From NCBI GenBank assembly GCA_000004985.1, contig GG738882.1: a stretch of DNA of 64,000 nt. One strand, 5' to 3'. Position 1 is the stretch's first letter, and each line of letters opens with the position of its first letter. A program made the position numbers and the translations under genes. Shown one piece after another: positions 32,205 to 49,602 of this stretch. This DNA comes from Naegleria gruberi. Taxonomy: Eukaryota. The notes beneath the pieces were generated by a model that was not told the origin of the DNA, ran no database searches, and saw only the letters and a list, made by a program, of their open reading frames with translations.

Positions 32205-33257
32205 TTATTCTTGATCTTCTTCTGAAGATTTATGTAAATTCAAGAATGCAGACCAATAGTTGTGCATATCAATAGCAACAACACATGAATCCTTAACAGC
32301 TTCAACTTCATCAGCTTGGAATTCTTCTAATAATTTGAGTGATTCTGGTTCAGAAATTGATCCCAAAGCTTCAGCAGCTTCGTGACGGACCATAGCATGT
32401 TGATTCTTATCACGCAATGTACTTTCGAGAGCTTCAGCAGCAGCTCTTTCTTGAATTTGACCCAAAACAAAGGCAACTTCATGTTTGAAAAGAGCACCTT
32501 CTTCTGGATTAGTCAAACCTTGACACAAAACTTCAATAGCTTGTCCCTTTCTCTTATAACACAAAGCATAATCATGCTTGTCCAATTCCAAATATTGACC
32601 AGCAATGTTTCTCAAAGTAAACATAGCCTTATATCTTTCAAAAAGTGGCTTGCTCATATCGAGGAAAGTATTCTTAATATCATCAAATTGGAGTTTCTTA
32701 TCATTTTCACAAGCTGGAGCAGGATCGACACTTGAGAATGGTGAATAGATAGTCTCTTCGTCACTTTGTTTCTTCTTTAATTGTTCTTGTTGATATTCAA
32801 TATTCAAAATAGCCAATTCACAAGTTTCTCTAACTTCTCTGAGGGAATCCTTGCTGTGTTCTTCAAGTGCAGGGAGAGCAAGAGGTGATCCGATAGCACC
32901 CAAAGCTTCACCAGCTTCGTGACGAACCATGCAATCTTCGGAAAGATCACTTAAAATCTTGACAAGAATAGGAATGGCATGCTCAGAGTGAATTTGACCC
33001 ATCACATAACCAATTTCGTGTCTCAAGAGAGCACTCTTACTGACAAAACCACTTGAAAGAACATCAATGGCTCTTTTAATTTTATCTTCGGATTCAGTCC
33101 ATTGCTTTAAATAATAAAGCATACGTGAACGTCTACTGACTGGAATGTCATCATTGGACAATAATTGTTTCAATTCGTCATCTGTGAAGGCAGCAAATTC
33201 ATCGGCTGGATCGTTGAAATTGTGTTTATCGGTTGAGATTTCTTCTTGTTGGCTCAT
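32205..33257 (-). CDS. Deoxyhypusine hydroxylase (HEAT-repeat di-iron enzyme).
   Basis: 350-aa ORF with paired HEAT-like repeats carrying the conserved His-Glu motifs (RHEIGYVMGQI, RHEAGEALGAIG, KHEVAFVLGQI, RHEAAEALGSI). ATG behind aaaaaaa. Confidence 0.8.
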   Translation of the reverse strand: MSQQEEISTDKHNFNDPADEFAAFTDDELKQLLSNDDIPVSRRSRMLYYLKQWTESEDKIKRAIDVLSSGFVSKSALLRHEIGYVMGQIHSEHAIPILVKILSDLSEDCMVRHEAGEALGAIGSPLALPALEEHSKDSLREVRETCELAILNIEYQQEQLKKKQSDEETIYSPFSSVDPAPACENDKKLQFDDIKNTFLDMSKPLFERYKAMFTLRNIAGQYLELDKHDYALCYKRKGQAIEVLCQGLTNPEEGALFKHEVAFVLGQIQERAAAEALESTLRDKNQHAMVRHEAAEALGSISEPESLKLLEEFQADEVEAVKDSCVVAIDMHNYWSAFLNLHKSSEEDQE

Positions 33258-33569: not shown

Positions 33570-36500
33570 ATGTTAATTAGTGATTGTAAAAATAATAATT
33601 GGAACAAGATGAACTCGAGTCCGATGATGAACATGAGTTTTCAAAATTTACAAACACAAAAAAAAATGATCAGCTCCAAGCCCTTGTCATTTGTGATCAA
33701 TTCTTCTGCATCAGATGAAAATTCGGAAGAGAAGAATACAACAACATCAGCAACAAGTGAAAATGAAATGGAAAGAAAGAGATATGATAGACAAATGAGA
33801 GCAATTGGTAAGGAGGCCATGACACAGATTGGATCGGCAAGAATTTTGGTGATTGGATGTGGTGGTTTAGGTGTTGAAATTGTCAAGAATTTAATGTTGA
33901 TGGGATTCAAGTCTATTACAGTTTTTGATAACAAGAAGATTGTATCATATTTGGATTTGAACAGTCATTTCTACTTGAATGAAGATCATGTTGGATTGAA
34001 TAGACTCGATTCTGTGATTGATAGCTTGTACGAATTGAATCCATATTGTAAATTAGAAAAGTTAGAGGCCGAAACTTTGACTGAAGATATCATCAAGAAA
34101 TTTAACATTGTCATCAGTAGTGATGAGTTGATTGTTTCGGATTATGTAATTAATATTTCAGAAATTTGTCACACCAATGGTATCAAGTTTATTGCAGGCT
34201 ATACCATCGGCTTGTTTTCATCGAGTTTTGTTGATTTTGGAGAGGGATTTGTTGTCAAGGATGCAGATGGTGAGGCTCCTTCACATGGTATTGTATCCGG
34301 AATTGAAATTGTTCAAAAAGATGGAATCTCTGTTGCCATCATCAATACAAAGGATGAAACACAACCAGAGCCACACAACTTGTCCAATGATGACTATGTT
34401 AAATTCCACTCTATTGAAGGAATGGTCCAATTGAACAATACTGAAAAACCTTTCCAAGTCAAGGTAGTAGATGTTTACAGATTTGAACTTATAGGATTGG
34501 ATGTTTCAGAGTTTGGATCATACACACAAGGAGGTTACTTTAGACAGGTTAAACAAGAGAAAGTCTTGGATTTCAAGAGTTTGAAGCAATCTCTTGTTGA
34601 TATCGATGCTGGATTGTTTGATGATATTTCTGCATTCCTATTGTACAATTTTGCCAAGATGGATTATCCTATCAAATTGCACTATTATTCCCTTGCTCTC
34701 AATAGATTCATTTCACAAAAAGGCAGACTTCCTCAAAATTATAACACTGAAGAAGCTAAGGAAATAATCTCTATTGCTTCAAATATTTTGGAATCTACTG
34801 AAAGAAAGGCTCCATACTTTGTTGATGAAATTTTATTCTCCCTCTTGTCTTATACCATGTCAGGTCCATTGAATCCAATGTGTACCATGTTGGGTGGTTT
34901 GCTTGCACAAGAAGCTCAAAAGGCATGTACTGGAAAATTCTCTCCTCTCTTCCAATGGTGTTACTTGGAATCTGTTAATTCAATTCCAGATATTATTACC
35001 AATGCTATCAAGGAAAATGTTAATGCTGACATTCGACCAACCCTCTCCAAATTGAATATTGATGTCGAGCCAAAGAATAATAGATATGATGCACAAAATA
35101 TGATATTTGGTGCTGATTTCCAACAACATTTGACCAATCAAAAAGTTTTCCTTGTAGGAGCTGGTGCTTTGGGATGTGAGTATTTGAAGAATTTTGCCAT
35201 GATTGGTTTGGGTTCAGGACCAAGAGGTACACTCTCTGTGACTGATATGGATTCTATTGAAGTATCCAATTTGAGTAGACAATTCTTGTTCAGAGAGGAA
35301 CATGTGGGAAAGATGAAGAGTGAATGTGCTGCCAAGGCTGCTCAAAAGATGAATCCATCACTCAATATTAGAGCTATGGCTGATAGAGTTGGAAAGGAAA
35401 CTGAAAATGTTTTTGATTCTTCTTTCTGGGGTGAGCTTGACCTTGTTGTCAATGCTCTGGATAATTTGGAAGCAAGACTCTATGTTGACTCCAAGTGTGT
35501 CTACAATCAAAAACCATTATTGGAAAGTGGTACTCTTGGAGCTAAGGCTAATAGTGAAGTCATTTTACCATTCGTCACCAACAATTATGGTAAACATAAG
35601 GATCCACCTCAAAAGCAATTCCCTGAATGTACCATTCACAGATATCCAAACATGATTCAACACACTATTTCTTGGGCTAAAGCTTTCTTCCAATCTTCAT
35701 TCACCAAATCTGTTGAAGAAGCAAAACTCTTCTTGAAATCACCGCAAGCATTCTTTGAAGAGAAGGGAAACAATATGGTTACTTTGGACTCTGTAACAAT
35801 GTACTTGTGTCAAAGACCTCAAAGTTTTGAAGACTGCTTGAGCTGGAGTGTAATTAGATTTGAAGAGCTTTACAATCACTCAATCAAAAATATTTTACTC
35901 ACTTACCCAGAAGCTTTCACAACAAGTTCTGGTGCCAGATTTTGGAGTGGTTCCAAGAAATGTCCAAAGCCGATCGAATTTTCTGTTGAAGACGAAACTC
36001 ATTTGAAATTTGTATTTTATGGCGCTTTACTTTATGCCTCACTCTTTAATATTGAAGGTCCAGCCGATTGCAGATCTAACCATGCCAAGTTCTTCGAAGC
36101 TAACAAACAATATCTTATTGATGTGGTTTCTAGAACAGTCATTCCAAAATACATTCCAAATCCAATTAGCAGAGACGATGACGATGCTAAGGACTCTTCA
36201 AAGGAAGGATCTTCTGAAAAGCCAAAGGAGCTATCTGAAGAAGAAATTGAACGTCAACAAAGACAAATGAATGAATATACCACCAAGCTTAGAAATGATC
36301 TCACCACTGTAGCAGAGAAAATTGATAGCGACCGTGCCTTATTGGAAACAGCCTTCTTTTTGACTGATATCGACTTTGAAAAAGATGATGACATGCATAT
36401 GGAATTTATCACCAGTGCTAGTAATTTAAGAGCCAGATGTTACAATATTCCTGAAATTGATGTTTATGAAACTAAGGGTATTGCTGGAAGTATCATTCCA

Positions 36501-37124
36501 GCCATGATTACCACCACTGCACTCATTACTGGTCTTGTTGTTCTTGAGCTCTATAAGGTTTTGGATTTGAACTTTAATGAACTCAAAGAAAAACTCAAGA
36601 CTGAAGGAGATAAGGAAAAGTTTTTGGAAAGATTTAGCAATTCCTATGTAAATATTGGAATTCCATTCATTACTCAATCCGAACCAGTTCCATGCAAGAA
36701 AGATGTTGCCAATGGTTTGTACGATATTTGGGAAACTATCAATATTTCAAAGACCAAGGATAATGTTGGAACTCTGGGTGAGCTCATCGAACACATTCAA
36801 TCAACAACCAAGTTGACAGTCACCAGTGTTACTTACGAAGGTGCCATACTGTACACCTGTTTTATGGCTGATGAAACTAAGGAAAAGAGAATGGCTCGTC
36901 CACTCGATCAACTTTTGAATGCCATTTTCAAATCAGAAAAGAGCAAGACAGTTTTCAACTTGGGAGTTTTGGCTATGGATCTCAACAGTACAACCAACTC
37001 TGATATTGTAACTTTACCAACAGTTGTTTACTCTGCAGAGAAGGGTGGTTTATCTGAGGAAGAAAAGAAGAAACTATTATTAGAAAAGAAAAAGCAATTG
37101 CTTAAACAAAAGCAACAAAAGTAA
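33570..37124 (+). CDS. Ubiquitin-activating enzyme E1 (UBA1/UBA6 family).
   Basis: 1184-aa ORF. Two ThiF/MoeB adenylation repeats (RYDRQMRAIG...ILVIGCGGLGVE; RYDAQNMIFG...VFLVGAGALGCEYLKN). The catalytic Cys context is ESGTLGAKANSEVILPFVTNNYGKHKDPPQKQFPECTIHRYPNMIQHTISWAK. The true start may be the ATG at 33610 (MNSSP...). Confidence 0.85.
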   Translation: MLISDCKNNNWNKMNSSPMMNMSFQNLQTQKKMISSKPLSFVINSSASDENSEEKNTTTSATSENEMERKRYDRQMRAIGKEAMTQIGSARILVIGCGGLGVEIVKNLMLMGFKSITVFDNKKIVSYLDLNSHFYLNEDHVGLNRLDSVIDSLYELNPYCKLEKLEAETLTEDIIKKFNIVISSDELIVSDYVINISEICHTNGIKFIAGYTIGLFSSSFVDFGEGFVVKDADGEAPSHGIVSGIEIVQKDGISVAIINTKDETQPEPHNLSNDDYVKFHSIEGMVQLNNTEKPFQVKVVDVYRFELIGLDVSEFGSYTQGGYFRQVKQEKVLDFKSLKQSLVDIDAGLFDDISAFLLYNFAKMDYPIKLHYYSLALNRFISQKGRLPQNYNTEEAKEIISIASNILESTERKAPYFVDEILFSLLSYTMSGPLNPMCTMLGGLLAQEAQKACTGKFSPLFQWCYLESVNSIPDIITNAIKENVNADIRPTLSKLNIDVEPKNNRYDAQNMIFGADFQQHLTNQKVFLVGAGALGCEYLKNFAMIGLGSGPRGTLSVTDMDSIEVSNLSRQFLFREEHVGKMKSECAAKAAQKMNPSLNIRAMADRVGKETENVFDSSFWGELDLVVNALDNLEARLYVDSKCVYNQKPLLESGTLGAKANSEVILPFVTNNYGKHKDPPQKQFPECTIHRYPNMIQHTISWAKAFFQSSFTKSVEEAKLFLKSPQAFFEEKGNNMVTLDSVTMYLCQRPQSFEDCLSWSVIRFEELYNHSIKNILLTYPEAFTTSSGARFWSGSKKCPKPIEFSVEDETHLKFVFYGALLYASLFNIEGPADCRSNHAKFFEANKQYLIDVVSRTVIPKYIPNPISRDDDDAKDSSKEGSSEKPKELSEEEIERQQRQMNEYTTKLRNDLTTVAEKIDSDRALLETAFFLTDIDFEKDDDMHMEFITSASNLRARCYNIPEIDVYETKGIAGSIIPAMITTTALITGLVVLELYKVLDLNFNELKEKLKTEGDKEKFLERFSNSYVNIGIPFITQSEPVPCKKDVANGLYDIWETINISKTKDNVGTLGELIEHIQSTTKLTVTSVTYEGAILYTCFMADETKEKRMARPLDQLLNAIFKSEKSKTVFNLGVLAMDLNSTTNSDIVTLPTVVYSAEKGGLSEEEKKKLLLEKKKQLLKQKQQK

Positions 37125-39126: not shown

Positions 39127-41427
39127 TTAATTTATTTCAAAACCTCCTATTCTTTGAGGTGGCATTCTTTCTGGTGCTATCATTGCTTCAGGCATTGGAA
39201 CATTTCCTTCTTCATCTCTGTGTAAATTGGTTAAAGAGACCAACCAATTTTCATCATTCATTTCACCAAGTTCCATAATTAGTAATTTGGAGTGAAGGAA
39301 TGAGTGATCACTTTGTTCAACTTCTTTCAGTTCAGTGTGTTTTCCTAGCCATGGGAAACCATTTACACTTGCTAAATAAATACGTCTGTGCTCTTGTTGT
39401 AACAGTTGGAGAGTTTCTAACTTATTTGCTTTTCCACCTGAAGCTGTGCTTCTTTCTAGAGCTAACCGATGGCCAGCATGGATGTTTTCACTTCCTTCAT
39501 TAGCAAATTTCACTAATGGACCATAAATGAAAATCAAATCTGGAACATGCTTAATCAAAATGTGGAAGTAATATGCAAATTTTGATGTTGGATAAATCTC
39601 TCTCAATAAACGGCCAACGTACTTGCACATTAATTGTAAAGTGTCCTTCTTGTCCACATCACCAATTAGCGAATCAGGACCTTCAATAAAATCAAAAAAA
39701 ATAACTCGAACCAACTCCCACAACATCACTCCTTTGTAATCCAAATAGCCATCAAATATTTTCTCAAAGTTGCGGAGGATTTCATCAACTTGATCACCAT
39801 TTAAATATGGAATTTTTGGATAATGTTGATCACTCACACCTTCATCTTCATCCTCTTGTCTCTCGTTTCTGTATTTGAATTGAGATAGATGTGGTAATCT
39901 TTTCATTCTTGATTCAATTACATCCCATACATCTTTTCCGTGTTGGAGTAAAATCTGTACCACCAAACAAGAAACAATTCTCATCTTCATATGCAAGGAA
40001 CAAATAATATTATGGACTAGGACATTAGGCATCATTCTGAAAAATAATGTTCTTGGATCATTATCATGTTCATAAAGATGACGTTGTGATTTCTTACATT
40101 TACAATAAGGACAAAAACATTCTTCATCATTCAAGTCAGATATTAATCCAAACATCTTCAAATCATGTACCATGAATATTTTGATTGGAATGGAAGTATC
40201 ATTATACATTATTTCAAAGAAACCAGTTAAAGAATTGTAACTTTCCTCTAATATTGAAGTAATGAACCTTAAAATGGCATTAGATGCTTCCATATTTTCA
40301 TCATAATCTAGAATGGCACAAATAATTTGAGAGAATCTGGATTGTGCTGCCACTTGTAAATTTAAAGGAGCAACAGATCCCACCAAATAAGTCTCAGTTC
40401 CCTTATCTAATGAAAGTTTCAAGTCTACACTAGAAAGGCTATTGCTAATATTATTCTTGCTACAAATTGATTTGTGAATATTTAACATGTCACCCAATAC
40501 TTTCACAAAATTACAACAAACGGCTACACCATTAACAAACACGTTATATCTAGCTTGGGTGCATTCATGAATGGCACTTCTCAATCTACACAATGTTCTA
40601 GAACAAGGAAGAATACATTTCAAACCTGTATATTCAATGAATGTTTGATATTTCTCATCACTTAGTAGAATGAAATCTTTCACATATTGAATTAGTTTCT
40701 TGCTTATATCTAATTTACTTTTGACTGTAGAAACAGCATTCTTGATTTGTAACCATAATGATTCGTTTTCTTTACCTGTGGATGGATTAATTCTCATACA
40801 CCTTAACATCTTCACAAATTCTGGGATATTTCTTTGAAAGTAGAGAGCTAACATTAACAGTAAGTTTAATCCACAAGCTGTACAAATACCATACAAAATA
40901 TTCATAACATTATTTACAATTTTGTTTCTATAGGTAGCATCTGTCATTTCTGTAATTTTCTTTCTATACTTTGTGGAACATGTGATACTTTCATTACCAC
41001 AAGCAGAACAGCAACCTCCTACGAATTTCAAATTAATTCCTGACTGCTCAACATTATTTCTTATTACAATGGGTGTTAAATCTTGGACTAAATATTTGGA
41101 AATTAATTCCAAAACAGATTCTTTACATTTACAGGATGGACTCAATAGAAATGATAAGGCCCAAACCGGTTCAACAAATTTATTTTTTTCAATCATCATT
41201 CCTTTCCAATTGGATTTATTAGGTTTAAAATATTTTGGCTTTCTTGGAGTTGTACTATATTTCTTTAATAATTTTGTAATATTAATGTATTTTTCTTCAT
41301 TTTGGGTTGTTATTTCAATATCAGTTCGATCAAAAATAGTATGGATATTTGGAATTACCTCACTTAGTGACAGAAATTCGGATTGTTGATCATTACTTGA
41401 TGATTGAGTATGATCAAGGGATGACAT
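39127..41427 (-). CDS. Large cysteine-rich protein of unknown function. It may be transposase-derived or a member of a multicopy family.
   Basis: 766-aa ORF with Cys clusters (SPSCKCKES, VGGCCSACGNESITCS, YGICTACGL, LKCILPCSRTLCRLRSAIHEC, ECFCPYCKCKKSQRH). A degraded paralogous copy lies immediately upstream (see the pseudogene feature). ATG behind an A-rich run. Confidence 0.5.
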   Translation of the reverse strand: MSSLDHTQSSSNDQQSEFLSLSEVIPNIHTIFDRTDIEITTQNEEKYINITKLLKKYSTTPRKPKYFKPNKSNWKGMMIEKNKFVEPVWALSFLLSPSCKCKESVLELISKYLVQDLTPIVIRNNVEQSGINLKFVGGCCSACGNESITCSTKYRKKITEMTDATYRNKIVNNVMNILYGICTACGLNLLLMLALYFQRNIPEFVKMLRCMRINPSTGKENESLWLQIKNAVSTVKSKLDISKKLIQYVKDFILLSDEKYQTFIEYTGLKCILPCSRTLCRLRSAIHECTQARYNVFVNGVAVCCNFVKVLGDMLNIHKSICSKNNISNSLSSVDLKLSLDKGTETYLVGSVAPLNLQVAAQSRFSQIICAILDYDENMEASNAILRFITSILEESYNSLTGFFEIMYNDTSIPIKIFMVHDLKMFGLISDLNDEECFCPYCKCKKSQRHLYEHDNDPRTLFFRMMPNVLVHNIICSLHMKMRIVSCLVVQILLQHGKDVWDVIESRMKRLPHLSQFKYRNERQEDEDEGVSDQHYPKIPYLNGDQVDEILRNFEKIFDGYLDYKGVMLWELVRVIFFDFIEGPDSLIGDVDKKDTLQLMCKYVGRLLREIYPTSKFAYYFHILIKHVPDLIFIYGPLVKFANEGSENIHAGHRLALERSTASGGKANKLETLQLLQQEHRRIYLASVNGFPWLGKHTELKEVEQSDHSFLHSKLLIMELGEMNDENWLVSLTNLHRDEEGNVPMPEAMIAPERMPPQRIGGFEIN

Positions 41428-41429
41428 TT

Positions 41430-42700
41430 TATTTTAAACTTGTTTACAATAAAATTCCAGAAATATTTGGAGTTGTAGTATGTTCTCAATCTATAATTAA
41501 TTTTTTGAAGGTGGCATCTGGGGAGTTGTTGAAGCTTTATTAGGTTCATGGATATAAAAAGCTTCGCTTCTATAAAGAATGGGGCAACCAGGAGTGCACC
41601 ATCAGTAGGGTATTGTCATTGTATTGACATTTACAATAATCTCCTTTTTGGCATTTACATTTAGAACATGTATAGCTTTCAAGAAATAATGATAGCCATC
41701 TTTGTACAGAATCCCAAATCCAAGGACCTATTAGAATTCCAATCTTTTCAATTGAATCAGTGTAAGAGTTATAAACATCAATTGATTTTCCATTAATTTC
41801 ATTCAACTCTTCAACTAGTTTTGTAGCTAATTTGAATTGGGAAATAAGAAGCACAACAATTGTAAATAAATTAATCAGTTTTACTTCAAATTAATTTTCA
41901 GCAGAGTAAATTAAGGGCAACTTTCAGTCAAATACCAACACACTAAAAGCCGCATAGAAACTGAATGTTCACCGAATAGTCACTGAATGTTTACCATATA
42001 ATAACTGAATGGTTACTGAATATTTATTGAATAGTTACCCACAACAAAGCCTTGATAAAAATCAAGTCGCCAAGATGATGTAAAGACACCATGACAATAA
42101 ATCCAATCATCAAATCTTTTTCAATAAATTTCTTAATAACAATATTTCTAATTTGTAAAGGTAGCATTATTTGGATTTGAGAACTTACTTTCCACTAACT
42201 GTGATTGCAAATTGAGATTCTTGGAATATTGATATTGAAACTAAGAATTTTACCTAAACAATCTTTCTTCACCACCATGACATCATTAGCCGTAGTGTTA
42301 ACATGAAATTCCTATGTTTGAGTATTAATTATGAATGATTTGTTTCAATGATACTTACATAATTCTTATCAATAAGTTGGAGTAATGATGAATTTTCTTC
42401 TTTAGAGATACGAATAGACACTTCCCTTGAAATATTAATTGATTCTGCGAGGTAGTTTCAACTTGATATGTGCCATGAATAAATTTCTTGAATATCTTAT
42501 TATAGGATTCATATGGAAAACATAGGAGACCATGTCTCTCAATTTCGGTTAAATGAATAAGATGATGAACATTTAAGGACAAATATTCTGGAGGGTTCAA
42601 TTCATCGTACTCCAATACTGATATATATTTGCTTTTTCCAAATCCTCTTTGGAAATACAATCAGAAAATAATATTCTCAATGCTTCAGAAAGGTACTAAA
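41430..42700 (-). pseudogene. Decayed tandem paralog of the 39127..41427 Cys-rich gene.
   Basis: Fragment ORF 41570..41854 (…YNSYTDSIEKIGILIGP…TCSKCKCQKGDYCKCQYNDNTLLMVHSWLP) aligns with …MYNDTSIPIKIFMVHDL…ECFCPYCKCKKSQRHLYEHDNDPRTLFFRMMP of the intact gene. Fragment ORF 42355..42660 (KYISVLEYDELNPPEYLSLNVHHLIHLTEIERHGLLCFPYESYNKIFKKFIHG) aligns with KYVGRLLREIYPTSKFAYYFHILIKHVPDLIFIYGPLVKFANEGSENIHAG. Both lie on the same strand and in the same order, interrupted by frame breaks. Confidence 0.45.
41925..42055. repeat. Short degenerate tandem repeat (actgaatRgtYacc-like units).
   Basis: cactgaatgttcaccgaatagtcactgaatgtttaccatataataactgaatggttactgaatatttattgaatagttaccc shows 4-5 imperfect direct copies within the decayed paralog region. 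Confidence 0.3.
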
Positions 42701-43105
42701 ACCTCATGGCATTTCCACAACTAATAATCATCCAATGATGAAATTACAGCTCCATAAATTAACAATAGTGAACTATGTGACTTATTGTTAACCTTGGGAT
42801 TCTATGGAGATTACAATGAATGTAATACAGAGCTAAAGAAACACTTAGAAAGCAATCTCGAGTTCAATGAAGAGGAGAAACAAGATTTATCAGAAGCACT
42901 TTGCTATTTATTCAAAGATTGTTGTCCGACTTATGAAGGTTTGGAGCTAATCATTCAAGTAATGAAAAAGTTCAATATTACCTATGAATTGAGTAAGAAA
43001 TATCCAACAAAATCTGTTAATCCATATTCAGAAAGTGGAAGTAGAGGAAGACACAATAAATTCTTCAAATAAAAGGCAATCACTTAAGGTTATAGAGCTA
43101 ATATC

Positions 43106-44365
43106 TTAGAAATAAATATCATAATTGTGTTTTGGAATTTTTGAGAATAAGCTAATAGGATGTTGAATCAGAAGGGCATTAGTATTCTTATCTTGATAAA
43201 CTACTGATACAACATTTCCAAATCCAAACATTTCCCTTCTTGTTCTTGCTAATAAAACTCTTCCAAATTGAGGATCCCTTTCAAATGTTGTAAGGAAACC
43301 ATTTTGAGACATTAAGCTGTCATGCCCCGTTTGAAACCTGTGGGATATCTTAATTCCAATTCTTAGTTTGTTTCCAGAGCCCTGTATTCTTTCAATTTTC
43401 CCAAATAGTTTGGATTTGCAAAAAATCCAACATGTTTGATTAATATATATATCCTTATTGATGTTATCTGAGTTGAAATGAGTATAATCAATCCAAAACG
43501 AATCTACCTTAATCATTTTAATCTTTTCCGAATAGTAATTTCCACTTAAAAAGTGTTTATACTTATGAGAATAAGAGCGTGGAATCAATTCTTTCATAAA
43601 AGGAGCAAAGAATATATTACCAGGAAGAAATACTTTAGGTTTTTCATAACTAAAAGTTGCCAAGTAATCGGCACCCTCTACTTTAAACTTTCGTTCTCCA
43701 TTATTCGTATTAAAATAAATTTCCTCTCCTTGATGAACTATTCCACTTAATACTTTAAAATGACAAGTGGCATACAATCTACAAGAATAAACAGTTTGTA
43801 ACATTTGTATTCTGACAGGTTGAGCAGCCAATCGATCAAAATCTATTTTAATAGGCAACGAGTGAATCCAATCCTTAACTTTGTCAATTGAATTCCAATT
43901 TAAAAATTCACAAGTCAATTCAACCACTGATTCTTTTCTAATTACTTTTCTAATCCAATCATAAACTTGATCATTACTTTTAACATTCCGATTATTATCC
44001 ACCAACAATAAAATCCTATCAATTAAAGAATAATTCACCATTCGAATACAATCTCTCAATCGTTGATACATAATTTCATCATCAGTACTTTCAACAATGA
44101 TAATTGCATAATCCGAAACCATCAATGCCTTGTTCATATTTGTGATGGTGCACTGTCTAGCGCCTATCCCCACCAATTGAATAATTAATTTCCTATCAAC
44201 ATCATCATCATTCATTGAATTCGGATCATTCATTACATTGTAATTGATGGTTCTTCTCCATGTAAAATTATATAGTTTGAAATATCGGTAAAATCGCTCG
44301 GAATGATCCGAGTGATCTCCTATCAGTGCAATCGTGATATTTTCTCTAAAGTAATGTTGAGACAT
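43106..44365 (-). CDS. eEF1A/HBS1/Ski7-family translational-GTPase-like protein with degenerate G motifs (predicted pseudo-GTPase).
   Basis: 419 aa. The G-domain aligns to eEF1A: NITIALIGDHSDHSE against NIVVIGHVDSGKST, CTITNMNKALMVSDYAIIIVESTDDE against [28 protein letters not shown], and LLLVDNNRNV against LIVGVNKMDS. Domain III aligns as well (GRVLLARTRREMFGFGNVVSV against [20 protein letters not shown]). The P-loop Lys, the DxxG motif and the NKxD motif are all lost. Confidence 0.55.
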   Translation of the reverse strand: MSQHYFRENITIALIGDHSDHSERFYRYFKLYNFTWRRTINYNVMNDPNSMNDDDVDRKLIIQLVGIGARQCTITNMNKALMVSDYAIIIVESTDDEIMYQRLRDCIRMVNYSLIDRILLLVDNNRNVKSNDQVYDWIRKVIRKESVVELTCEFLNWNSIDKVKDWIHSLPIKIDFDRLAAQPVRIQMLQTVYSCRLYATCHFKVLSGIVHQGEEIYFNTNNGERKFKVEGADYLATFSYEKPKVFLPGNIFFAPFMKELIPRSYSHKYKHFLSGNYYSEKIKMIKVDSFWIDYTHFNSDNINKDIYINQTCWIFCKSKLFGKIERIQGSGNKLRIGIKISHRFQTGHDSLMSQNGFLTTFERDPQFGRVLLARTRREMFGFGNVVSVVYQDKNTNALLIQHPISLFSKIPKHNYDIYF

Positions 44366-44649
44366 TTTTTTCTAATATTCTCTTTACAATTTTGTTACAA
44401 CAAAGAAATTGGATCAATTACAAAGAGTATTATTGAATGACAAAATTTGATCTACAGTTCTTTTTCTAAAGTGCCATAGTACTGCTTCTCTATTCTCTCC
44501 AATTTTCAATTTTTCATTCACCAACTTCATCTTTTTCAAAAAGTTCTATTTTTACAACAAGAATTCACCTTTGCTATTTAAACAAAAAACAAGCAACGGC
44601 CTTTGATTTCATAATTATAAAAAAATAGAACAACAACAATAACGAGAAA

Positions 44650-47600
44650 ATGAACGGTGCCTTTACCTACTCACCAGTGGATTTGTCTTCCATTGATAGA
44701 ATTCAGTTTGGCATTTTGAATCCACATGTGGTTGAGAAAATGTCTGCATGTGAAATAATTCATGCCGAAACTGAGGAGAAAGGTCTTCCAAAGGAAGGTG
44801 GTTTGATGGATCTTCGTATGGGAACTGTAAATAGTGCACTCTCCTGTATGACATGTGGCTGTGGAGTGAGTGAATGTCCAGGACACTTTGGACATGTCAA
44901 TATTCATCCAACATTTAATATATTATTCCTAAAGACAATTGTCAAGATATTGAAATGTACATGTGTCCATTGCAGTAGATTGCTCTTCAATAGAAACACT
45001 CCAGAATTCAAGAGAATCCAACAAATCGCCAACAAACGAAAAAGATTTAACGAATTGATGAAACTGAAACCAATGGACAAGTGCATGATTGATGATTATA
45101 CAGGTTGTGGTGGTATTCAACCTAAAATATCGAAGAATCAACTGTCCATCACTCAAATATTTCCAAATTCCAATGAAATCAAGCAAGAAATCAAAGCTGA
45201 AAGTGTCTTGCAGATTTTCAAGAGAATTTCAACACAAGATTTGGAATTACTTGGTTTTGATTCAATTAATTCGAATCCAGAATGGATGATATTAACTTGT
45301 CTTCCAGTGCCACCTCCACATGTTCGTCCTTCTGTGATGCATGGCTTGAATGATAAGGCAGAAGATGATTTGACTCATAAACTTGCTGACATTATCAAGT
45401 CAAATGCCACAATTCAGAAATTGAGCAAATCTGGATCTCCACAACATTATCTTGATGACATGATCAAGATTTTGCAATATCATTGTGCTACTTATATGAA
45501 TAATGAAATTTCTGGAGTGCCAATGTCAACTACCAAGAATGGAAGAATGTTAAAAAGTTTGAGACAAAGATTGAAGGGCAAGGAAGGACGTGTCAGAGGT
45601 AATTTGATGGGTAAACGTGTAGATTTCTCAGCAAGAACTGTGATTACTCCAGATCCAACCATTGAAATAGATCAGGTTGGTGTTCCAAGAACAATTGCAA
45701 GAAATATGACAGTTCCAGAAAAAGTGACACCTTTCAACTTTGAGAGAATGAATGAATTGGTCATGAATGGTCCAGAAACCTATCCAGGTGCTAAATACGT
45801 CCTTCGTGATGATGGTACTCGAATTGATTTGAAATTTCTTTCAGATAGATCAACAGATCAAGTTCAATTACAATACGGTTACACAATTGAACGTCATTTA
45901 CAAGATGGTGATGTCGTTCTCTTCAATAGACAACCTTCCCTTCACAAAATGTCCATGATGGGTCACAGAGTTAAGGTTATGCCTTACAGCACTTTCAGAT
46001 TAAATCTCTCCGTAGTAACTCCGTACAATGCCGATTTTGACGGAGATGAAATGAATTTGCATTTGCCTCAATCTTTGCAAACCAAAACTGAATTGTTAGA
46101 GCTCATGATGGTTCCAAAGAATATCATCACTCCTCAAAGTCATCGTCCTCTCATTGCACTAGTTCAGGATACATTACTGGCAGGTTCAAAATGTACAAGA
46201 AGAGATGTCTATATTGAGAAGGATGTCATGATGAATTGTCTAATGTATTTGCAAGATTTTAATGGTCAATTGCCAGTTCCAGCAATTTTAAAGCCAAAAC
46301 CATTGTGGACTGGAAAACAATTATTTTCACTTCTATTACCCTCAATTGACTATTATGGAATTTCTTCCACACACGATGATGAAGTTGGAGATTTGAAACA
46401 TTTGGATGATCATTTACCTGAATTCGATACTGGAATAATCATTTCTAATGGAGAACTCTTAACAGGTATTTTAGATAAGAAATCTTTAGGGTCATCCCAT
46501 GGCTCCTTAATTCACATCATTGTTAATGATAAGGGAACTCAGGAAGGAAAGAAATTCCTTGGACAATGTCAACATGTACTGAACTATTGGTTGCTTCAAC
46601 ACGGATTCAGTGTTGGTATTGGAGATACAATTGCAGATGGGGAAACTGTTAAGAAAATTGAAGAAATCATTAATAATGCTGAGAGAGAAGTTAAGAAAAT
46701 TGTCAAACAAGCTCATAATGGATTGGTGACAGCTGAACCTGGAAGAACAGTTGAGCAATCATTTGAAAGATCAATCAATTCAACATTAAATGCCGCCAGA
46801 GAGGATGCTGGTATGCATGTCAAAAAGTCACTCAAAGATTCGAATAGCATCAAATCAATGGTTACTTCAGGAAGTAAGGGTTCCTACCTTAACATTTCAC
46901 AAATCATTGCCTGTGTCGGTCAACAAAACGTTGAAGGTAAGAGAGTACCTTTCGGATTCAAGAACAGAACACTCCCTCACTTTAGTACAGATGATCATGG
47001 ACCTGAGAGTCGTGGTTTTGTTGCCAACAGTTACCTCAGAGGACTTACACCTCAGGAATTCTTCTTCCACACAATGGGAGGTCGTGAAGGGTTGATTGAT
47101 ACAGCTGTCAAGACAGCTGAGACTGGTTATATTCAGAGAAGATTGGTGAAGGCCATGGAAGATGTTAAGGTCAACTATGACGGAACTGTGAGAGATGCTT
47201 CTGGAAATATTATCCAGTTCTTGTATGGTGAAGATGGAATGGATCCAATCAAGTTGGAAAGCCAATCGTTTGAAATGTTAAGTTTGAGTGATGAGATATT
47301 TGAAGAAAAGTACAAATGGTCAACCAAGTTGGAAGACCACAACATTCCAGAAAGTGATTTGAATGAAATTTCCTTAGATTTTGCCAATTATTTGATGAAA
47401 CTGAATGATGAATATAAAAAATTGCAAGAATATCGTCACTTGGTAAGAGATGAAATATTACAATCAGTAGATTCAAAGATTGTCTTTCCAGTCAACTTGT
47501 CCAGATTGATCAAGAGAGTTCAAAGAGAATATGGTAGAAAGCACTCTACTTTCAACAACTCCTCAGATTTGAATCCACTCTACGTTATCAAGAAGGTCAA

Positions 47601-49602
47601 CTCTACATGTGAAGAGCTACTCATCATTAAGGGAAAAGATAAATTATCAGAAGAAGCTCAAAGAAATGCAATTTTGCTTTTTTCAATTTTCTTGAAATTT
47701 TCATTGGCATCCAAGGTTGTTATGAATGAATTGAATTTGACTCGAGAATCTCTTGAATATTTATTGGGAGAGGTCAAGTACACATTCTTGAATGGTTTGG
47801 TTCAACCTGGTGAAATGGTTGGTTGCATTGCAGCTCAGTCAATTGGTGAACCTGCTACTCAAATGACTTTGAATACCTTTCACAATGCTGGTGTTTCGTC
47901 TAAGAATGTTACTTTGGGTGTTCCTCGATTGAAAGAACTCCTCGATGTTTCAAGAAATATCAAAACTCCTGGGTTGACCATTTATCTCAAAAATGATAAT
48001 GATTGTGAAATTGCCAAAATGGTTAAGGAAGAATTGGAATATTCTAATTTAGGTTCCATTACTAGATCTACTCAGATTATCTACGATCCAGATATTTTCA
48101 ATTCAGTTATTGAAAGTGATCAATTTTTCATTAGAGAAATGCTGGAAGAAAAAACCATTGATCCTAATACGTTTAGTCCATGGTCATTGAGATTCGTATT
48201 AGATAGAGAAATGATGAGTGAACATTTGAACATGTCTCAGATTGCAAATATTATCAAACAAGAATTTCAAAATGACATTTCATGTTTCTATTCGGATGAT
48301 AATTCAGAGGAGTTAATCTTGATAATTCGTATTCGAAACAGTGAGAAATCCAAATCTGAAACTGAGGACGATGAAGAGGATTCTTCCATGATTGTTGAAT
48401 TCCTTAAAAGACTCGAGTCCAACATGCTTAGTCAACTCTCCCTTAAAGGTCACAACAATCTCAAGAAGGTTTTCTACAGAAAAGATGAAAATATTAAATT
48501 CTTTTCCAATAAGGGAGTTGAAAAGAAGACAAGATGGTCATTAGAAACAGAAGGTTGTGATTTACTTTCAGTCATGTCTCATCCACAAGTTGATTTTAGA
48601 AATACCTTGTCAAATGATGTTATTGAAGTTGAGAAAGTGTTGGGAATTGAAGCTTGTAGAAATTTATTAATGAAAGAATTGAGAAAGGTTATTGAGTTTG
48701 ATGGTTCCTATGTCAATTATAGACATTTGGCTATTTTATGTGATGTAATGACTCAAGGAGGTGTTATTACAGCTGTCACTCGTCACGGTTTGGCCAGAAG
48801 TGATAATGGACCACTTATGAGATGTTCATTCGAGCAAACAGTTGAAGTACTTGTGGAAGCAGCTCAATTTTCAGATGTTGATACCTTGAAAGGAGTTTCA
48901 GCCAATGTTATGGTTGGTAAATTGGCTCCGATTGGAACAGGAACTTTTGATCTAGTCCTAGATGAGCAATTATTGAAGGAAACCATTCAACCAACCTTTA
49001 TGAAGGCTTCTCATTTGACAAATATTTCAATAAGCTCTCCTCATGCTGTCATGACTCCTTATCACTCAACTTTCTCTACACCTTCCTGTTCAACACCATT
49101 CTCTTCATCACCATCTAGTCCTTGGACTCCACAATATTCTCCATACACTTCTGCATTTTCACCAATTACATCCATTGCAAGTTCTCCAACAAGTCATAAT
49201 GCAAGCTATTCACCAAGTGCAAATCATAATTATTCACCAAGCAGCCCAGCCAATTATAGCCCAAGCTCACCATTAGGATCTTATTCACCAAGTAGTCCAA
49301 ATTATAGAGACTATAGTCCAACATCTCCATTAATTAATGGTCCAATGTCACCAATCTATAGTCCTTCTTCACCTGCCTACACTCCAATGAATAGTCCTGG
49401 AAGATATAGCCCTAGCTCTCCTGCATTCTCACCTCTGAGTCCAAATGTTTATTCACCATCCAGTCCTGGAAGATACAGCCCTAGCTCTCCATCAAGTCCT
49501 AATATTTATTCACCAACTAGTCCAATCTATAGTCCAACATCTCCATACTCTCCGTCAAGTCCAAGTTTTAGCCCAACTTCACCAATAGATTGGAAACAAT
49601 AG
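44650..49602 (+). CDS. rpb1: DNA-directed RNA polymerase II largest subunit (RPB1), with a short degenerate CTD.
   Basis: 1650-aa intronless ORF. Clamp zinc motifs (CMTCGCGVSECPGHFGH), the catalytic NADFDGDEMNLH motif and a trigger-loop/bridge region. The C-terminal tail carries about 15 imperfect heptads (YSPSSPA, NYSPSSP, YSPTSP, GRYSPSSP...). Confidence 0.95.
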   Translation: MNGAFTYSPVDLSSIDRIQFGILNPHVVEKMSACEIIHAETEEKGLPKEGGLMDLRMGTVNSALSCMTCGCGVSECPGHFGHVNIHPTFNILFLKTIVKILKCTCVHCSRLLFNRNTPEFKRIQQIANKRKRFNELMKLKPMDKCMIDDYTGCGGIQPKISKNQLSITQIFPNSNEIKQEIKAESVLQIFKRISTQDLELLGFDSINSNPEWMILTCLPVPPPHVRPSVMHGLNDKAEDDLTHKLADIIKSNATIQKLSKSGSPQHYLDDMIKILQYHCATYMNNEISGVPMSTTKNGRMLKSLRQRLKGKEGRVRGNLMGKRVDFSARTVITPDPTIEIDQVGVPRTIARNMTVPEKVTPFNFERMNELVMNGPETYPGAKYVLRDDGTRIDLKFLSDRSTDQVQLQYGYTIERHLQDGDVVLFNRQPSLHKMSMMGHRVKVMPYSTFRLNLSVVTPYNADFDGDEMNLHLPQSLQTKTELLELMMVPKNIITPQSHRPLIALVQDTLLAGSKCTRRDVYIEKDVMMNCLMYLQDFNGQLPVPAILKPKPLWTGKQLFSLLLPSIDYYGISSTHDDEVGDLKHLDDHLPEFDTGIIISNGELLTGILDKKSLGSSHGSLIHIIVNDKGTQEGKKFLGQCQHVLNYWLLQHGFSVGIGDTIADGETVKKIEEIINNAEREVKKIVKQAHNGLVTAEPGRTVEQSFERSINSTLNAAREDAGMHVKKSLKDSNSIKSMVTSGSKGSYLNISQIIACVGQQNVEGKRVPFGFKNRTLPHFSTDDHGPESRGFVANSYLRGLTPQEFFFHTMGGREGLIDTAVKTAETGYIQRRLVKAMEDVKVNYDGTVRDASGNIIQFLYGEDGMDPIKLESQSFEMLSLSDEIFEEKYKWSTKLEDHNIPESDLNEISLDFANYLMKLNDEYKKLQEYRHLVRDEILQSVDSKIVFPVNLSRLIKRVQREYGRKHSTFNNSSDLNPLYVIKKVNSTCEELLIIKGKDKLSEEAQRNAILLFSIFLKFSLASKVVMNELNLTRESLEYLLGEVKYTFLNGLVQPGEMVGCIAAQSIGEPATQMTLNTFHNAGVSSKNVTLGVPRLKELLDVSRNIKTPGLTIYLKNDNDCEIAKMVKEELEYSNLGSITRSTQIIYDPDIFNSVIESDQFFIREMLEEKTIDPNTFSPWSLRFVLDREMMSEHLNMSQIANIIKQEFQNDISCFYSDDNSEELILIIRIRNSEKSKSETEDDEEDSSMIVEFLKRLESNMLSQLSLKGHNNLKKVFYRKDENIKFFSNKGVEKKTRWSLETEGCDLLSVMSHPQVDFRNTLSNDVIEVEKVLGIEACRNLLMKELRKVIEFDGSYVNYRHLAILCDVMTQGGVITAVTRHGLARSDNGPLMRCSFEQTVEVLVEAAQFSDVDTLKGVSANVMVGKLAPIGTGTFDLVLDEQLLKETIQPTFMKASHLTNISISSPHAVMTPYHSTFSTPSCSTPFSSSPSSPWTPQYSPYTSAFSPITSIASSPTSHNASYSPSANHNYSPSSPANYSPSSPLGSYSPSSPNYRDYSPTSPLINGPMSPIYSPSSPAYTPMNSPGRYSPSSPAFSPLSPNVYSPSSPGRYSPSSPSSPNIYSPTSPIYSPTSPYSPSSPSFSPTSPIDWKQ
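49105..49590 (+). repeat. Coding heptad-like tandem repeats: the RPB1 CTD, degenerate YSP(S/T)SP units.
   Basis: Visible periodicity of (t/c)attcaccaag(t/c)agtcca / tatagtccaacatctcca units within the 3' end of the RPB1 ORF. Confidence 0.7.

What the first reader, a model, noticed from the sequence alone, without database searches (positions are those of the whole stretch)
43106..44365. Stand-alone eEF1A/HBS1-family protein with every GTPase motif degenerate
A 419-aa ORF aligns along its full length with translational GTPases. The G-domain, domain II and domain III are all collinear with eEF1A/HBS1. However, G1 (GHVDSGKS becomes GDHSDHSE), G3 (DAPGH becomes VGIGARQ) and G4 (NKMD becomes DNNRN) are non-functional. 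Yeast Ski7 is the classic pseudo-GTPase of this family and acts as an exosome/Ski-complex adaptor. This gene could be an analogous adaptor, or a different co-option of the eEF1A fold, in this lineage.
Basis: partly seen in the sequence, partly recalled or inferred. Interest (0 to 1): 0.6.

Follow-up and report, generated by a model that had tools for sequence, protein, structure and literature searches.

The report
Dead EF-Tu-like GTPase relic in Naegleria
This Naegleria gruberi gene probably encodes a very diverged copy of a translation-elongation-factor GTPase that has lost every residue needed to bind GTP; it is a lineage-specific curiosity and shows no sign of being a Ski7-like RNA-decay adaptor.

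Summary
The ORF is real. It runs 43106-44365 on the minus strand, encodes 419 aa, and equals N. gruberi XP_002674799.1 / D2VMF9, annotated only as "predicted protein". Its single relative among about 15 billion proteins is an N. gruberi paralogue (D2V967, 64% identical).

Standard profile searches do not place it in the translational GTPase family. Pfam, NCBIfam and PDB searches give no hit, and hhalign gives P=0.09.

Three independent lines do place it there:
- A small EF1-family HMM scores the protein above 1000/1000 shuffles and above all 73 native control windows.
- A low-stringency hhalign alignment is collinear over residues 1-396.

At the aligned positions, G1, G3 and G4 are non-canonical, and no canonical motif occurs anywhere in the protein.

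My verdict is a lineage-specific EF-Tu/eEF1A-fold protein that probably cannot bind nucleotide. It most likely comes from N. gruberi's known expansion of divergent eEF1A copies.

The Ski7 analogy fails. There is no N-terminal extension and no exosome-binding motif, and a canonical Hbs1 exists elsewhere in the genome. Function is unknown. Interest is moderate.

The parts
43106..44365 (-). Complete single-exon coding sequence (419 codons plus stop) of N. gruberi NAEGRDRAFT_70119 / XP_002674799.1 / D2VMF9
   Evidence: ORF list. 100% match to the database protein. Frame-0 codon-usage preference. P(no stop) about 5e-17.
43844..44365 (-). Degenerate G-domain, residues 1-174. It is about 60 residues shorter than in eEF1A, is only 1.7% glycine and has pI 6.1.
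44297..44320 (-). G1 / P-loop position: GDHSDHSE (residues 16-23) in place of GHVDSGKS. The second Gly, the Lys and the Ser/Thr are all lost, and three acidic residues sit in the loop.
   Evidence: Translation. Alignment. No GxxxxGK[ST] anywhere in the protein.
44153..44173 (-). G3 / switch II position: VGIGARQ (residues 65-71) in place of DAPGHRD. The Walker-B Asp is lost, and the catalytic His position is Ala or Arg depending on a one-residue register choice.
   Evidence: Translation. hhalign alignment anchored on the conserved NM of switch II (N76 M77 to N101 M102 of eEF1A). No DxxG anywhere in the protein.
44093..44149 (-). Switch-II helix plus β4 remnant: TITNMNKALMVSDYAIIIV (residues 73-91), compared with eEF1A [19 protein letters not shown].
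   Evidence: Residues 77-91 are almost invariant between the two paralogues.
43985..44017 (-). β5 plus G4 position: RILLLVDNNRN (residues 117-127), compared with QLIVAVNKMDS. NKxD has become DNNR, so the guanine-specifying Asp is replaced by Arg. The paralogue has DDYR.
   Evidence: No [NT]KxD anywhere in the protein.
43889..43909 (-). G5 region remnant: EFLNWNS (residues 153-159), compared with eEF1A PISGWNG. WN is retained and the S-G/A is lost.
   Evidence: The first HMM domain hit starts here (residues 153-223 to family HMM positions 205-273).
43511..43843 (-). Linker plus β-barrel domain II, residues 175-285. It contains AQPVRIQMLQTVYS (compare DKPLRLPLQDVYK) and FKVLSGIVHQGEEIYF (compare GRVETGVIKPGMVVTF). 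pI is 9.4.
   Evidence: Best BLASTP and hhalign segment. The only Pfam hit for this fragment is GTP_EFTU_D2 at residues 201-224, E=0.14. HMM domain 1. AlphaFold strands with the highest pLDDT of the model.
43190..43510 (-). β-barrel domain III, residues 286-392. It ends in FERDPQFGRVLLARTRREMFGFGNVVSV (compare eEF1A [27 protein letters not shown]). pI is 9.6.
   Evidence: Second collinear BLASTP HSP. hhalign. HMM domain 2, residues 311-390 to HMM positions 352-430. Foldseek alignments of 283-345 columns to three-domain EF-Tu-type chains.
43109..43189 (-). C-terminal tail, residues 393-419 (KNTNALLIQHPISLFSKIPKHNYDIYF). It has no counterpart in eEF1A and is 70% identical between the paralogues.
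44366..44649 (.). 284-bp intergenic region shared with the divergently oriented RPB1 gene. It holds in-frame stops directly upstream of the ATG, so it leaves no room for an N-terminal extension.
   Evidence: Sequence and upstream in-frame translation. RPB1 ORF at 44650-49602.

Best explanation
The gene encodes a lineage-specific, extremely diverged member of the EF-Tu/eEF1A-type ('EF1S') branch of translational GTPases. It keeps the three-domain architecture: a G-domain, β-barrel domain II and β-barrel domain III. Every residue that canonical members use to bind and hydrolyse GTP is lost: the P-loop Lys and Ser/Thr, the Walker-B Asp, the catalytic His and the NKxD guanine-specificity motif. 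It should therefore be a 'class i' pseudoGTPase that neither binds nor hydrolyses nucleotide.

It most likely arose within Naegleria gruberi's unusually large expansion of divergent eEF1A paralogues. It then duplicated once, giving D2VMF9 and D2V967, and both copies have been kept as open reading frames.

Shown:
- the ORF, its paralogue and the absence of all canonical motifs;
- the absence of an N-terminal extension;
- fold-level and weak sequence-level similarity to EF1S GTPases.

Inferred:
- homology itself, which rests on low-confidence models and weak statistics;
- loss of nucleotide binding, which rests on sequence only;
- origin from eEF1A rather than from another EF1S member.

Speculative mechanism, about 0.2 on its own: the protein has no GTP switch, so it can only act by constitutive binding. 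That binding most plausibly goes through its basic domains II/III, whose overall pI of 9.1 matches eEF1A. The partner would be RNA, the ribosome or a partner of eEF1A. In other words it would be an inactive mimic or decoy of a translation factor, as Tsr1 is for eIF5B, and not an exosome adaptor.
For: Fold:
- The AlphaFold model of the protein, built from an alignment of only two sequences, gave 216 Foldseek PDB hits at E<=1e-3. The top 50 are all EF-Tu, eRF3a, Ski7 or CysN, with E from 3e-9 and 283-368 aligned columns.
- A second model, with the paralogue as target, again gave a top 50 made only of eIF2γ, EF-Tu, mtEF-Tu, Ski7, SelB, Sup35 and Hbs1.

Sequence:
- I built an HMM from four verified family members: yeast eEF1A, E. 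coli EF-Tu, human eRF3a and human eEF1A1.
- It scores the protein at 8.7 bits, with 0/1000 shuffles reaching that value. The paralogue scores 2.0 bits, with 6/1000 shuffles reaching it.
- Each protein gives two collinear domain hits at the expected places.
- None of 73 native control windows from other ORFs of this window reaches 2.0 bits.
- hhalign at low stringency gives one collinear alignment, residues 1-396 to eEF1A 1-446, which puts the degenerate strings exactly at G1, G3, G4 and G5.
- GTP_EFTU_D2 is the only Pfam family hit by the domain-II fragment.

Motif loss: no GxxxxGK[ST], DxxG or [NT]KxD occurs anywhere in the protein. The G-domain is 1.7% Gly. The G4 position differs between the paralogues (DNNR versus DDYR) while the flanking strand is conserved.

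A real gene under constraint:
- P(no stop) is about 5e-17.
- Codon usage favours frame 0 in every segment.
- The paralogue is 64% identical, evenly across domains (62-70%), and keeps an intact ORF.

Lineage context: Atkinson 2015 counts 37 translational GTPases in N. gruberi, including 12 eEF1A, one 'aEF1A' and 9 eEF2. The paper calls such protist copies 'often highly divergent' (PMC4342817).
Against: - No curated profile recognises the protein. PDB sequence searches find nothing.
- Pairwise and profile-profile statistics are not significant.
- Both AlphaFold models are poor: mean pLDDT 36 and 40, pTM 0.28-0.30. Foldseek TM-scores are only about 0.2-0.3. Residues 1-76, which carry G1-G3, have pLDDT 22-34. 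The tool itself warns that low-confidence models can give meaningless matches.
- The two models share one two-sequence alignment and are not independent.
- The register at G1-G3 is uncertain. An alternative alignment, RRTINYNV to GITINTSHV, would keep the G2 threonine.
- The annotated paralogue lacks the first 76 residues altogether.
- No expression data, no orthologue in any other organism and no partner information were found.
- Codon-usage typicality is lower than for neighbouring genes.
Confidence: 0.62

Rival explanations
1. It is a Ski7-like adaptor: a pseudo-GTPase of the HBS1 lineage that bridges the cytoplasmic exosome and the Ski complex.
Against: [quoted passage not shown] This protein starts 8 residues before β1, has in-frame stops upstream and lies 284 bp from RPB1.
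- It has no PF[DRK]F...SPDD motif.
- Ski7 still binds GTP, whereas here the P-loop is gone.
- Ski7 hits rank no better than EF-Tu, eIF2γ or SelB.
- N. gruberi has its own Hbs1.
Confidence: 0.03
2. It is an unrelated orphan protein. The resemblance to translational GTPases comes from chance motif matches plus AlphaFold's bias towards a heavily represented fold.
For: There is no significant hit with any standard profile or pairwise method. The models have pLDDT 36-40 and TM about 0.2. There are no intermediates in 1.8 billion representatives.
Against: - The HMM score beats 1000/1000 shuffles and 73/73 native controls, with collinear hits.
- The order of α/β half-domain, then barrel, then barrel matches.
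- The only Pfam hit of the domain-II fragment is GTP_EFTU_D2 at the right place.
Confidence: 0.13
3. It is a decaying or non-functional duplicate of an elongation-factor gene, a relic on its way to loss with no cellular role.
For: - It is restricted to one species.
- All functional motifs are lost.
- The codon-usage score is lower than for its neighbours.
- The paralogue is annotated without the N-terminal 76 residues.
- No literature or expression record was found.
Against: - Two copies that have diverged to 64% identity both keep long open frames in a genome where stops arise at about 8.6% per random codon.
- Divergence is even across domains, with blocks of invariant residues.
- Frame-0 codon preference holds throughout.
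These are signs of purifying selection on a protein.
Confidence: 0.12
4. It is still a nucleotide-binding protein that uses a non-canonical pocket, binding GTP or ATP without hydrolysis (a class ii/iii pseudoGTPase).
For: The register at G1-G3 is uncertain. A possible G2-like Thr39 (RRTIN) exists. Several pseudoGTPases, Ski7 among them, retain binding.
Against: The P-loop lysine and hydroxyl are absent and are replaced by an acidic His/Asp/Glu-rich loop. There is no DxxG or NKxD anywhere. The G4 position is not conserved between the paralogues.
Confidence: 0.08

Closest known systems
EF-Tu / eEF1A-type translational GTPases (Atkinson's 'EF1S' family: EF-Tu, eEF1A, eRF3, Hbs1, SelB, eIF2γ, GTPBP, CysN)
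   Same: Predicted G-domain plus two β-barrel domains in the same order. Collinear remnants of β1, switch II/β4, β5, the G5 'WN', the domain-II start (P-x-R-x-x-x-Q-x-V-Y) and the domain-III end (GR-x-x-x-R...G-x-V). Overall pI of 9.1, as in eEF1A.
   Different: - All G motifs are lost.
- The G-domain is about 60 residues shorter than in eEF1A.
- The protein falls below every curated Pfam threshold.
- The domain-II GxGTV loop is lost.
- There is a novel conserved C-terminal tail.
- It cannot be assigned to any subfamily.
[quoted passage not shown]
   Same: Translational-GTPase architecture similar to EF-Tu/SelB, with the active-site residues for GTP binding and hydrolysis absent. It acts by occupying a site, not by switching (abstract). 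It is the best functional analogy for a motif-dead protein with this fold.
Yeast Ski7 / HBS1L-V3 (SKI7)
   Same: A paralogue with a translational-GTPase fold that no longer works as a GTPase switch. It appears among the fold hits.
   Different: Ski7 binds GTP (PMC4509514). Its adaptor function needs N-terminal SKI7-like and Patch-4 motifs (PMC6143672). Neither an N-terminal region nor those motifs exist here.
Class i pseudoGTPases in general (for example the AAGAB N-terminal domain, PMC12490416)
   Same: A G-fold that lacks the G motifs and nucleotide binding and is used as a protein-interaction module.
   Different: Those are small-GTPase-like single domains. This is a three-domain translation-factor-type protein, and its lack of nucleotide binding is inferred, not measured.

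Membership tests
Translational GTPase superfamily, EF-Tu/eEF1A-type (EF1S) branch | Three-domain architecture: G-domain followed by β-barrel domains II and III | tested here: met
Translational GTPase superfamily, EF-Tu/eEF1A-type (EF1S) branch | Significant match to the curated profiles GTP_EFTU (PF00009), GTP_EFTU_D2 (PF03144) and GTP_EFTU_D3 (PF03143) | tested here: not met
   No hit for the whole protein at E<=10. On fragments, only D2 matches, at 13 bits (E=0.14) against a cut-off of 30.3 bits. No NCBIfam hit.
Translational GTPase superfamily, EF-Tu/eEF1A-type (EF1S) branch | Sequence similarity above chance to family members | tested here: inconclusive
   Unfiltered four-sequence family HMM: 8.7 bits with 0/1000 shuffles above it, and 2.0 bits with 6/1000 for the paralogue. 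0/73 native controls reach 2.0 bits. But hhalign gives P=0.07-0.16, and BLASTP and Smith-Waterman are not significant.
Translational GTPase superfamily, EF-Tu/eEF1A-type (EF1S) branch | Canonical G1 (GxxxxGK[ST]), G3 (DxxG) and G4 ([NT]KxD) motifs | tested here: not met
   None is present anywhere in the protein. The aligned positions read GDHSDHSE, VGIGARQ and DNNR. This is the finding itself: it is at best a catalytically dead member.
eEF1A / HBS1 / eRF3 subfamily specifically | Phylogenetic placement within the subfamily, or subfamily-specific G-domain insertions | tested here: not met
   G1-to-G3 spacing is 50 residues against 77 in eEF1A. G4-to-domain-II spacing is 60 against 90, so the eEF1A-type insertions are absent. 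Fold hits rank EF-Tu, eIF2γ and SelB as high as eRF3 or Hbs1. No phylogeny was attempted because the alignment is too weak to support one.
eEF1A / HBS1 / eRF3 subfamily specifically | N-terminal extension before the G-domain (HBS1, eRF3, Ski7) | tested here: not met
   β1 starts at about residue 9. In-frame stops lie upstream, and the intergenic region to RPB1 is 284 bp.
Ski7 | [quoted passage not shown] | tested here: not met
   Motif definitions come from PMC6143672. There is no PF[DRKE]F, PF.F or SPDD in either paralogue. The only RxxxFxxxL-like string lies inside domain III.
Ski7 | Retained GTP binding (intact P-loop) | tested here: not met
   Ski7 binds GTP (PMC4509514). Here the P-loop Lys and Ser/Thr are absent. 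Binding itself was not measured.
Class i pseudoGTPase (G-fold, no nucleotide binding, no catalysis) | G-domain fold | tested here: inconclusive
   The C-terminal half (β4 to α5) is modelled consistently, with pLDDT 50-65 in the paralogue model. The N-terminal half, residues 1-76, has pLDDT 22-34 and is absent from the annotated paralogue.
Class i pseudoGTPase (G-fold, no nucleotide binding, no catalysis) | No nucleotide binding or hydrolysis | not testable with these tools
   This is inferred from the absence of motifs only and needs biochemistry.
Tsr1/Bms1 family | AARP2CN / RIBIOP_C domains and a four-domain, roughly 800-residue architecture | tested here: not met

The most novel reading that the evidence does not exclude
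N. gruberi has evolved a private, nucleotide-blind protein family with an EF-Tu fold, from its expanded eEF1A gene set. The family would act as a constitutive mimic or decoy of a translation factor. It would occupy the ribosomal factor-binding site or sequester an eEF1A partner (tRNA, eEF1B, an eRF1/Pelota-like protein or actin), for example during the amoeba-to-flagellate switch or under stress. That would make it an independently evolved, compact analogue of Tsr1.
Probability: 0.15. Interest if true: 0.6.

Novelty: new variant of a known kind. Interest (0 to 1): 0.4.

Why it matters
If the assignment is right, a protein family filed as 'predicted protein', invisible to Pfam and without homologues elsewhere, is the far end of a translation-factor expansion. 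It would be a compact, stand-alone, three-domain EF-Tu-fold protein with no nucleotide pocket.

That would add an independently evolved case to the very short list of motif-dead translational-GTPase mimics, of which Tsr1 is the clearest. It would also give a natural experiment on what the EF-Tu scaffold can do without its switch.

It further shows that censuses of translational GTPases based on HMMs undercount the most diverged paralogues.

The practical impact is limited. The family is confined to one free-living amoeba, and no function or expression is known.

Tried and rejected
Sequence and profile searches:
- Pfam, NCBIfam, PDB phmmer and PDB hmmsearch on the whole protein and on the two-sequence profile gave nothing relevant.
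- BLASTP and Smith-Waterman/semi-global scores against four family members with 500 shuffles gave no signal, z<=2.5.
- hhalign against a narrow yeast-type eEF1A alignment found only a spurious 27-column match. hhalign -glob gave a meaningless end-to-start overlap.
- The HMM of the two paralogues searched against family members was not significant except for eRF3a, at 12/300.

Database and context searches:
- My second and third large protein searches were meant to build a diverse EF1-family profile. Both returned about 120 near-identical fungal eEF1A sequences, so they added no diversity. The third was effectively wasted.
- The Foldseek afdb50 library was unavailable.
- The look-up of encoding contigs had no record for either paralogue. 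I therefore could not obtain the paralogue's DNA, compute dN/dS or check its missing N-terminus.
- The accessions do not appear in the held supplements of Atkinson 2015 or in any searchable paper.
- Metagenome and viral contig scans found no relatives, so a giant-virus or mobile-element origin is not supported.
- The neighbourhood consists of ordinary host genes.
- Rfam and tRNA scans of the window were empty.

Considered and not done: I did not feed AlphaFold a hybrid alignment that included EF-Tu family rows. It would have been circular.
Full report
WHAT IS THERE

The window is Naegleria gruberi nuclear DNA. The ORF at 43106-44365 (minus strand, 419 aa, ATG start) is 100% identical to XP_002674799.1 / EFC42055.1 / UniProt D2VMF9 / NAEGRDRAFT_70119, named only 'predicted protein'.

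It sits among ordinary host genes:
- RNA polymerase II largest subunit at 44650-49602(+), only 284 bp away and divergently oriented
- ubiquitin E1
- a HEAT/PBS-lyase repeat protein
- Kelch/Gα proteins
- a class II aminoacyl-tRNA synthetase
- an EXS/SPX protein
- an Argonaute

The window contains no tRNA and no Rfam match.

IS IT A REAL GENE?

At the local composition (31% G+C), a random codon is a stop with probability about 0.086. A 419-codon open frame therefore has P of about 5e-17. A codon-usage log-likelihood trained on neighbouring genes is highest in frame 0. This holds for the whole ORF and for each of four segments, including codons 1-76. The score is lower than for the neighbouring genes.

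The only relative among 5.8 billion clusters and 1.84 billion representatives read in full by HMMER is a second N. gruberi protein, XP_002679280.1 / D2V967 (353 aa, 64% identical), on another scaffold. A third 'hit' is a spurious repeat protein. Identity between the paralogues is even across regions, at 62-70%. Two copies this diverged that both keep long open frames argue for selection on a protein. I could not obtain the paralogue's DNA, so dN/dS is untested. Nothing related was found in metagenome or viral contigs.

IS IT A TRANSLATIONAL GTPASE RELATIVE?

- Pfam and NCBIfam give no GTP_EFTU, D2 or D3 hit for the whole protein.
- PDB sequence and profile searches give nothing.
- BLASTP against yeast eEF1A gives E=0.52 and 6.7. 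The two best segments are collinear, though: residues 178-218 to eEF1A 238-278, and 358-394 to 410-442.
- Pairwise scores do not exceed shuffles.
- hhalign gives P=0.07-0.16.

Three further lines nevertheless point the same way.

(a) Fold prediction.
- AlphaFold2 with the two-sequence alignment gave a poor model: pLDDT 36, pTM 0.28.
- Foldseek against the PDB still returned 216 hits at E<=1e-3. The top 50 are all EF-Tu, eRF3a, Ski7 or CysN, with E from 3e-9 and about 283-368 aligned columns.
- A second model, with the paralogue as target, had pLDDT 40 overall and 50-65 over residues 11-190. Its secondary structure there reads β4-α3-β5-α4-β6-α5 followed by a barrel.
- That model again gave a top 50 made only of eIF2γ, EF-Tu, mtEF-Tu, Ski7, SelB, Sup35 and Hbs1.
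- Caveats: TM-scores are only 0.2-0.3, the domain packing is wrong, and the two models share one shallow alignment. This is a prediction, not a structure.

(b) Sequence statistics with decoys.
- I built an HMM from four family members.
- With HMMER's filters off, the protein scores 8.7 bits, and 0 of 1000 composition-preserving shuffles reach it (maximum 5.8 bits). The paralogue scores 2.0 bits, and 6 of 1000 shuffles reach it.
- Each protein gives two collinear hits at the expected places. For the protein these are residues 153-223 to HMM 205-273, and 311-390 to HMM 352-430.
- None of 73 control windows cut from the other long ORFs of this window reaches 2.0 bits. The maximum is 1.6.

(c) Pfam on fragments. 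Scanning the isolated domain-II fragment gives GTP_EFTU_D2 as the only family, at residues 201-224 (E=0.14, 13 bits, far below the 30.3-bit cut-off).

Taken together, I put homology to the EF-Tu/eEF1A-type branch at roughly 0.8-0.85.

ANATOMY UNDER THAT ALIGNMENT

With hhalign at -mact 0.05 the alignment is collinear from residue 1 to 396 against eEF1A 1-446. Coordinates were checked by translation.

| Element | This protein | eEF1A |
|---|---|---|
| β1 + G1 | ITIALIGDHSDHSE | INVVVIGHVDSGKS |
| G3 | VGIGARQ | DAPGHRD |
| switch II / β4 | TITNMNKALMVSDYAIIIV | [19 protein letters not shown] |
| β5 + G4 | RILLLVDNNRN | QLIVAVNKMDS |
| G5 | EFLNWNS | PISGWNG |
| domain II start | AQPVRIQMLQTVYS | DKPLRLPLQDVYK |
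| domain II hairpin | FKVLSGIVHQGEEIYF | GRVETGVIKPGMVVTF |
| domain III end | FGRVLLARTRREMFGFGNVVSV | [21 protein letters not shown] |

- The P-loop loses its second Gly, its Lys and its Ser/Thr, and gains Asp, Asp and Glu.
- The Walker-B Asp and the catalytic His are gone.
- The guanine-specifying Asp of NKxD is Arg.
- A regular-expression scan finds no GxxxxGK[ST], DxxG or [NT]KxD anywhere.
- The G-domain has only 1.7% Gly.
- The G4 position differs between the paralogues (DNNR against DDYR) while the flanking strand is conserved. This is as expected if guanine binding is not under selection.
- The G-domain is about 60 residues shorter than in eEF1A: G1-to-G3 is 50 residues against 77, and G4-to-domain-II is 60 against 90.
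- The register in residues 1-76 is uncertain, because pLDDT there is 22-34. An alternative pairing of RRTINYNV with EF-Tu GITINTSHV would retain the G2 threonine.
- The annotated paralogue begins at the residue equivalent to M77. It therefore lacks G1-G3 altogether, or is mis-annotated.
- Domains II and III are basic (pI 9.4 and 9.6). Overall pI is 9.1, the same as eEF1A.
- A 27-residue C-terminal tail with no eEF1A counterpart is 70% conserved between the paralogues.

WHICH SUBFAMILY?

This cannot be decided. Fold hits rank EF-Tu, eIF2γ and SelB as high as eRF3, Hbs1 or Ski7, and the eEF1A-type insertions are absent. Origin from eEF1A is suggested only by context. Atkinson's census lists 37 translational GTPases in N. 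gruberi: 12 eEF1A, one 'aEF1A', 9 eEF2, and single Hbs1, eRF3, eGTPBP and eSelB. The paper describes such protist copies as often highly divergent (PMC4342817). The basic pI is a second, weaker hint. The two accessions are not in the held supplements.

THE SKI7 IDEA

[quoted passage not shown] The defining SKI7-like and Patch-4 (PFDFxxxSPDDIV) motifs lie N-terminal to the GTPase-like part (PMC6143672; PMC4933942 and PMC4942675 abstracts). Ski7 also still binds GTP (PMC4509514).

Here the fold begins about 8 residues after the start codon. In-frame stops lie immediately upstream, and the whole intergenic space to RPB1 is 284 bp. No Patch-4-like string exists. A canonical Hbs1 is present elsewhere in the genome. 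The analogy is not supported.

HOW IT MOST LIKELY WORKS

Shown: a conserved three-domain ORF with no canonical nucleotide-binding residues.

Inferred: it cannot bind or hydrolyse GTP, which would make it a 'class i' pseudoGTPase in the sense used in PMC12490416. It therefore cannot cycle.

The rivals are given with probabilities in the structured fields. They are an unrelated orphan, a decaying duplicate, non-canonical nucleotide binding and a Ski7-like adaptor.

VERDICT

The support comes from fold prediction and decoy-controlled weak sequence signal, not from standard profile searches. The favoured Ski7 interpretation is not supported.

This is a new, very diverged and probably nucleotide-blind variant of a known kind, namely translational-GTPase-fold pseudoenzymes. 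It is confined to one species, and its function and expression are unknown. Interest is moderate, at 0.4.

Noticed in passing
window 44650-49602 (+): RNA polymerase II largest subunit (1650 aa, single ORF). Its C-terminal domain is made of degenerate SP-rich repeats (YSPSSP, YSPTSP, SPxYSP) and not regular YSPTSPS heptads. It shares a 284-bp divergent intergenic region with the target gene.
   Followed up: partly
window 39127-41427 (-) and 40001-44000: A 766-aa Cys-rich ORF with no Pfam family lies next to the target. The 40-44 kb stretch has the lowest G+C of the window (0.30 against 0.33-0.38). Both genes here are lineage-specific 'predicted proteins'.
   Followed up: partly
window 41428-43105: A 1.7-kb stretch between two minus-strand genes has no ORF longer than 101 aa, no Rfam match and no tRNA. 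It could be a long 3'/5' UTR region, a degraded gene or an unannotated intron-containing gene.
   Followed up: no
window 53290-55828 (+): Kelch repeats plus TPR plus the N-terminal part of a G-protein α subunit (profile positions 20-147) lie in one ORF. The Gα continuation (profile positions 144-267) lies in an overlapping ORF in another frame. This is probably one intron-containing gene for an unusual Kelch-TPR-Gα fusion. An RGS-domain protein follows at 57584-60292.
   Followed up: partly
paralogue P0002 (XP_002679280.1, D2V967; not in the window): The annotated paralogue starts exactly at the residue equivalent to Met77 of the target. It therefore lacks the strands and loops that would carry G1-G3. 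This is either a mis-called start or missed exon, or a real N-terminal truncation of the G-domain. Its DNA could not be retrieved.
   Followed up: partly
window 44237-44260 (-), residues 36-43: WRRTINYN resembles the EF-Tu switch-I/β2 string RGITINTS. An alternative alignment would keep the G2 threonine (Thr39) even though G1, G3 and G4 are lost.
   Followed up: no
window 60598-63294 (+), 32205-33257 (-), 33570-37124 (+), 2585-4273 (-): Ordinary housekeeping genes confirm normal chromosomal context: an Argonaute (ArgoN-PAZ-Piwi), a HEAT/PBS-lyase repeat protein of deoxyhypusine-hydroxylase type, ubiquitin-activating enzyme E1, and a class II (Asp/Lys/Asn-type) aminoacyl-tRNA synthetase.
   Followed up: partly
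protein P0003 (database hit, not in the window): The only other hit of the exhaustive HMMER search (E=1.4e-5, 10 stretches) is a 577-aa protein made of tandem repeats of about 48 residues (…TSCWNPHVEYMSYRVYKDKLLESTCWIYVLQSLQGQAVGIHMLNICLTEF…). It is a spurious repeat-driven match to residues 287-323.
   Followed up: yes
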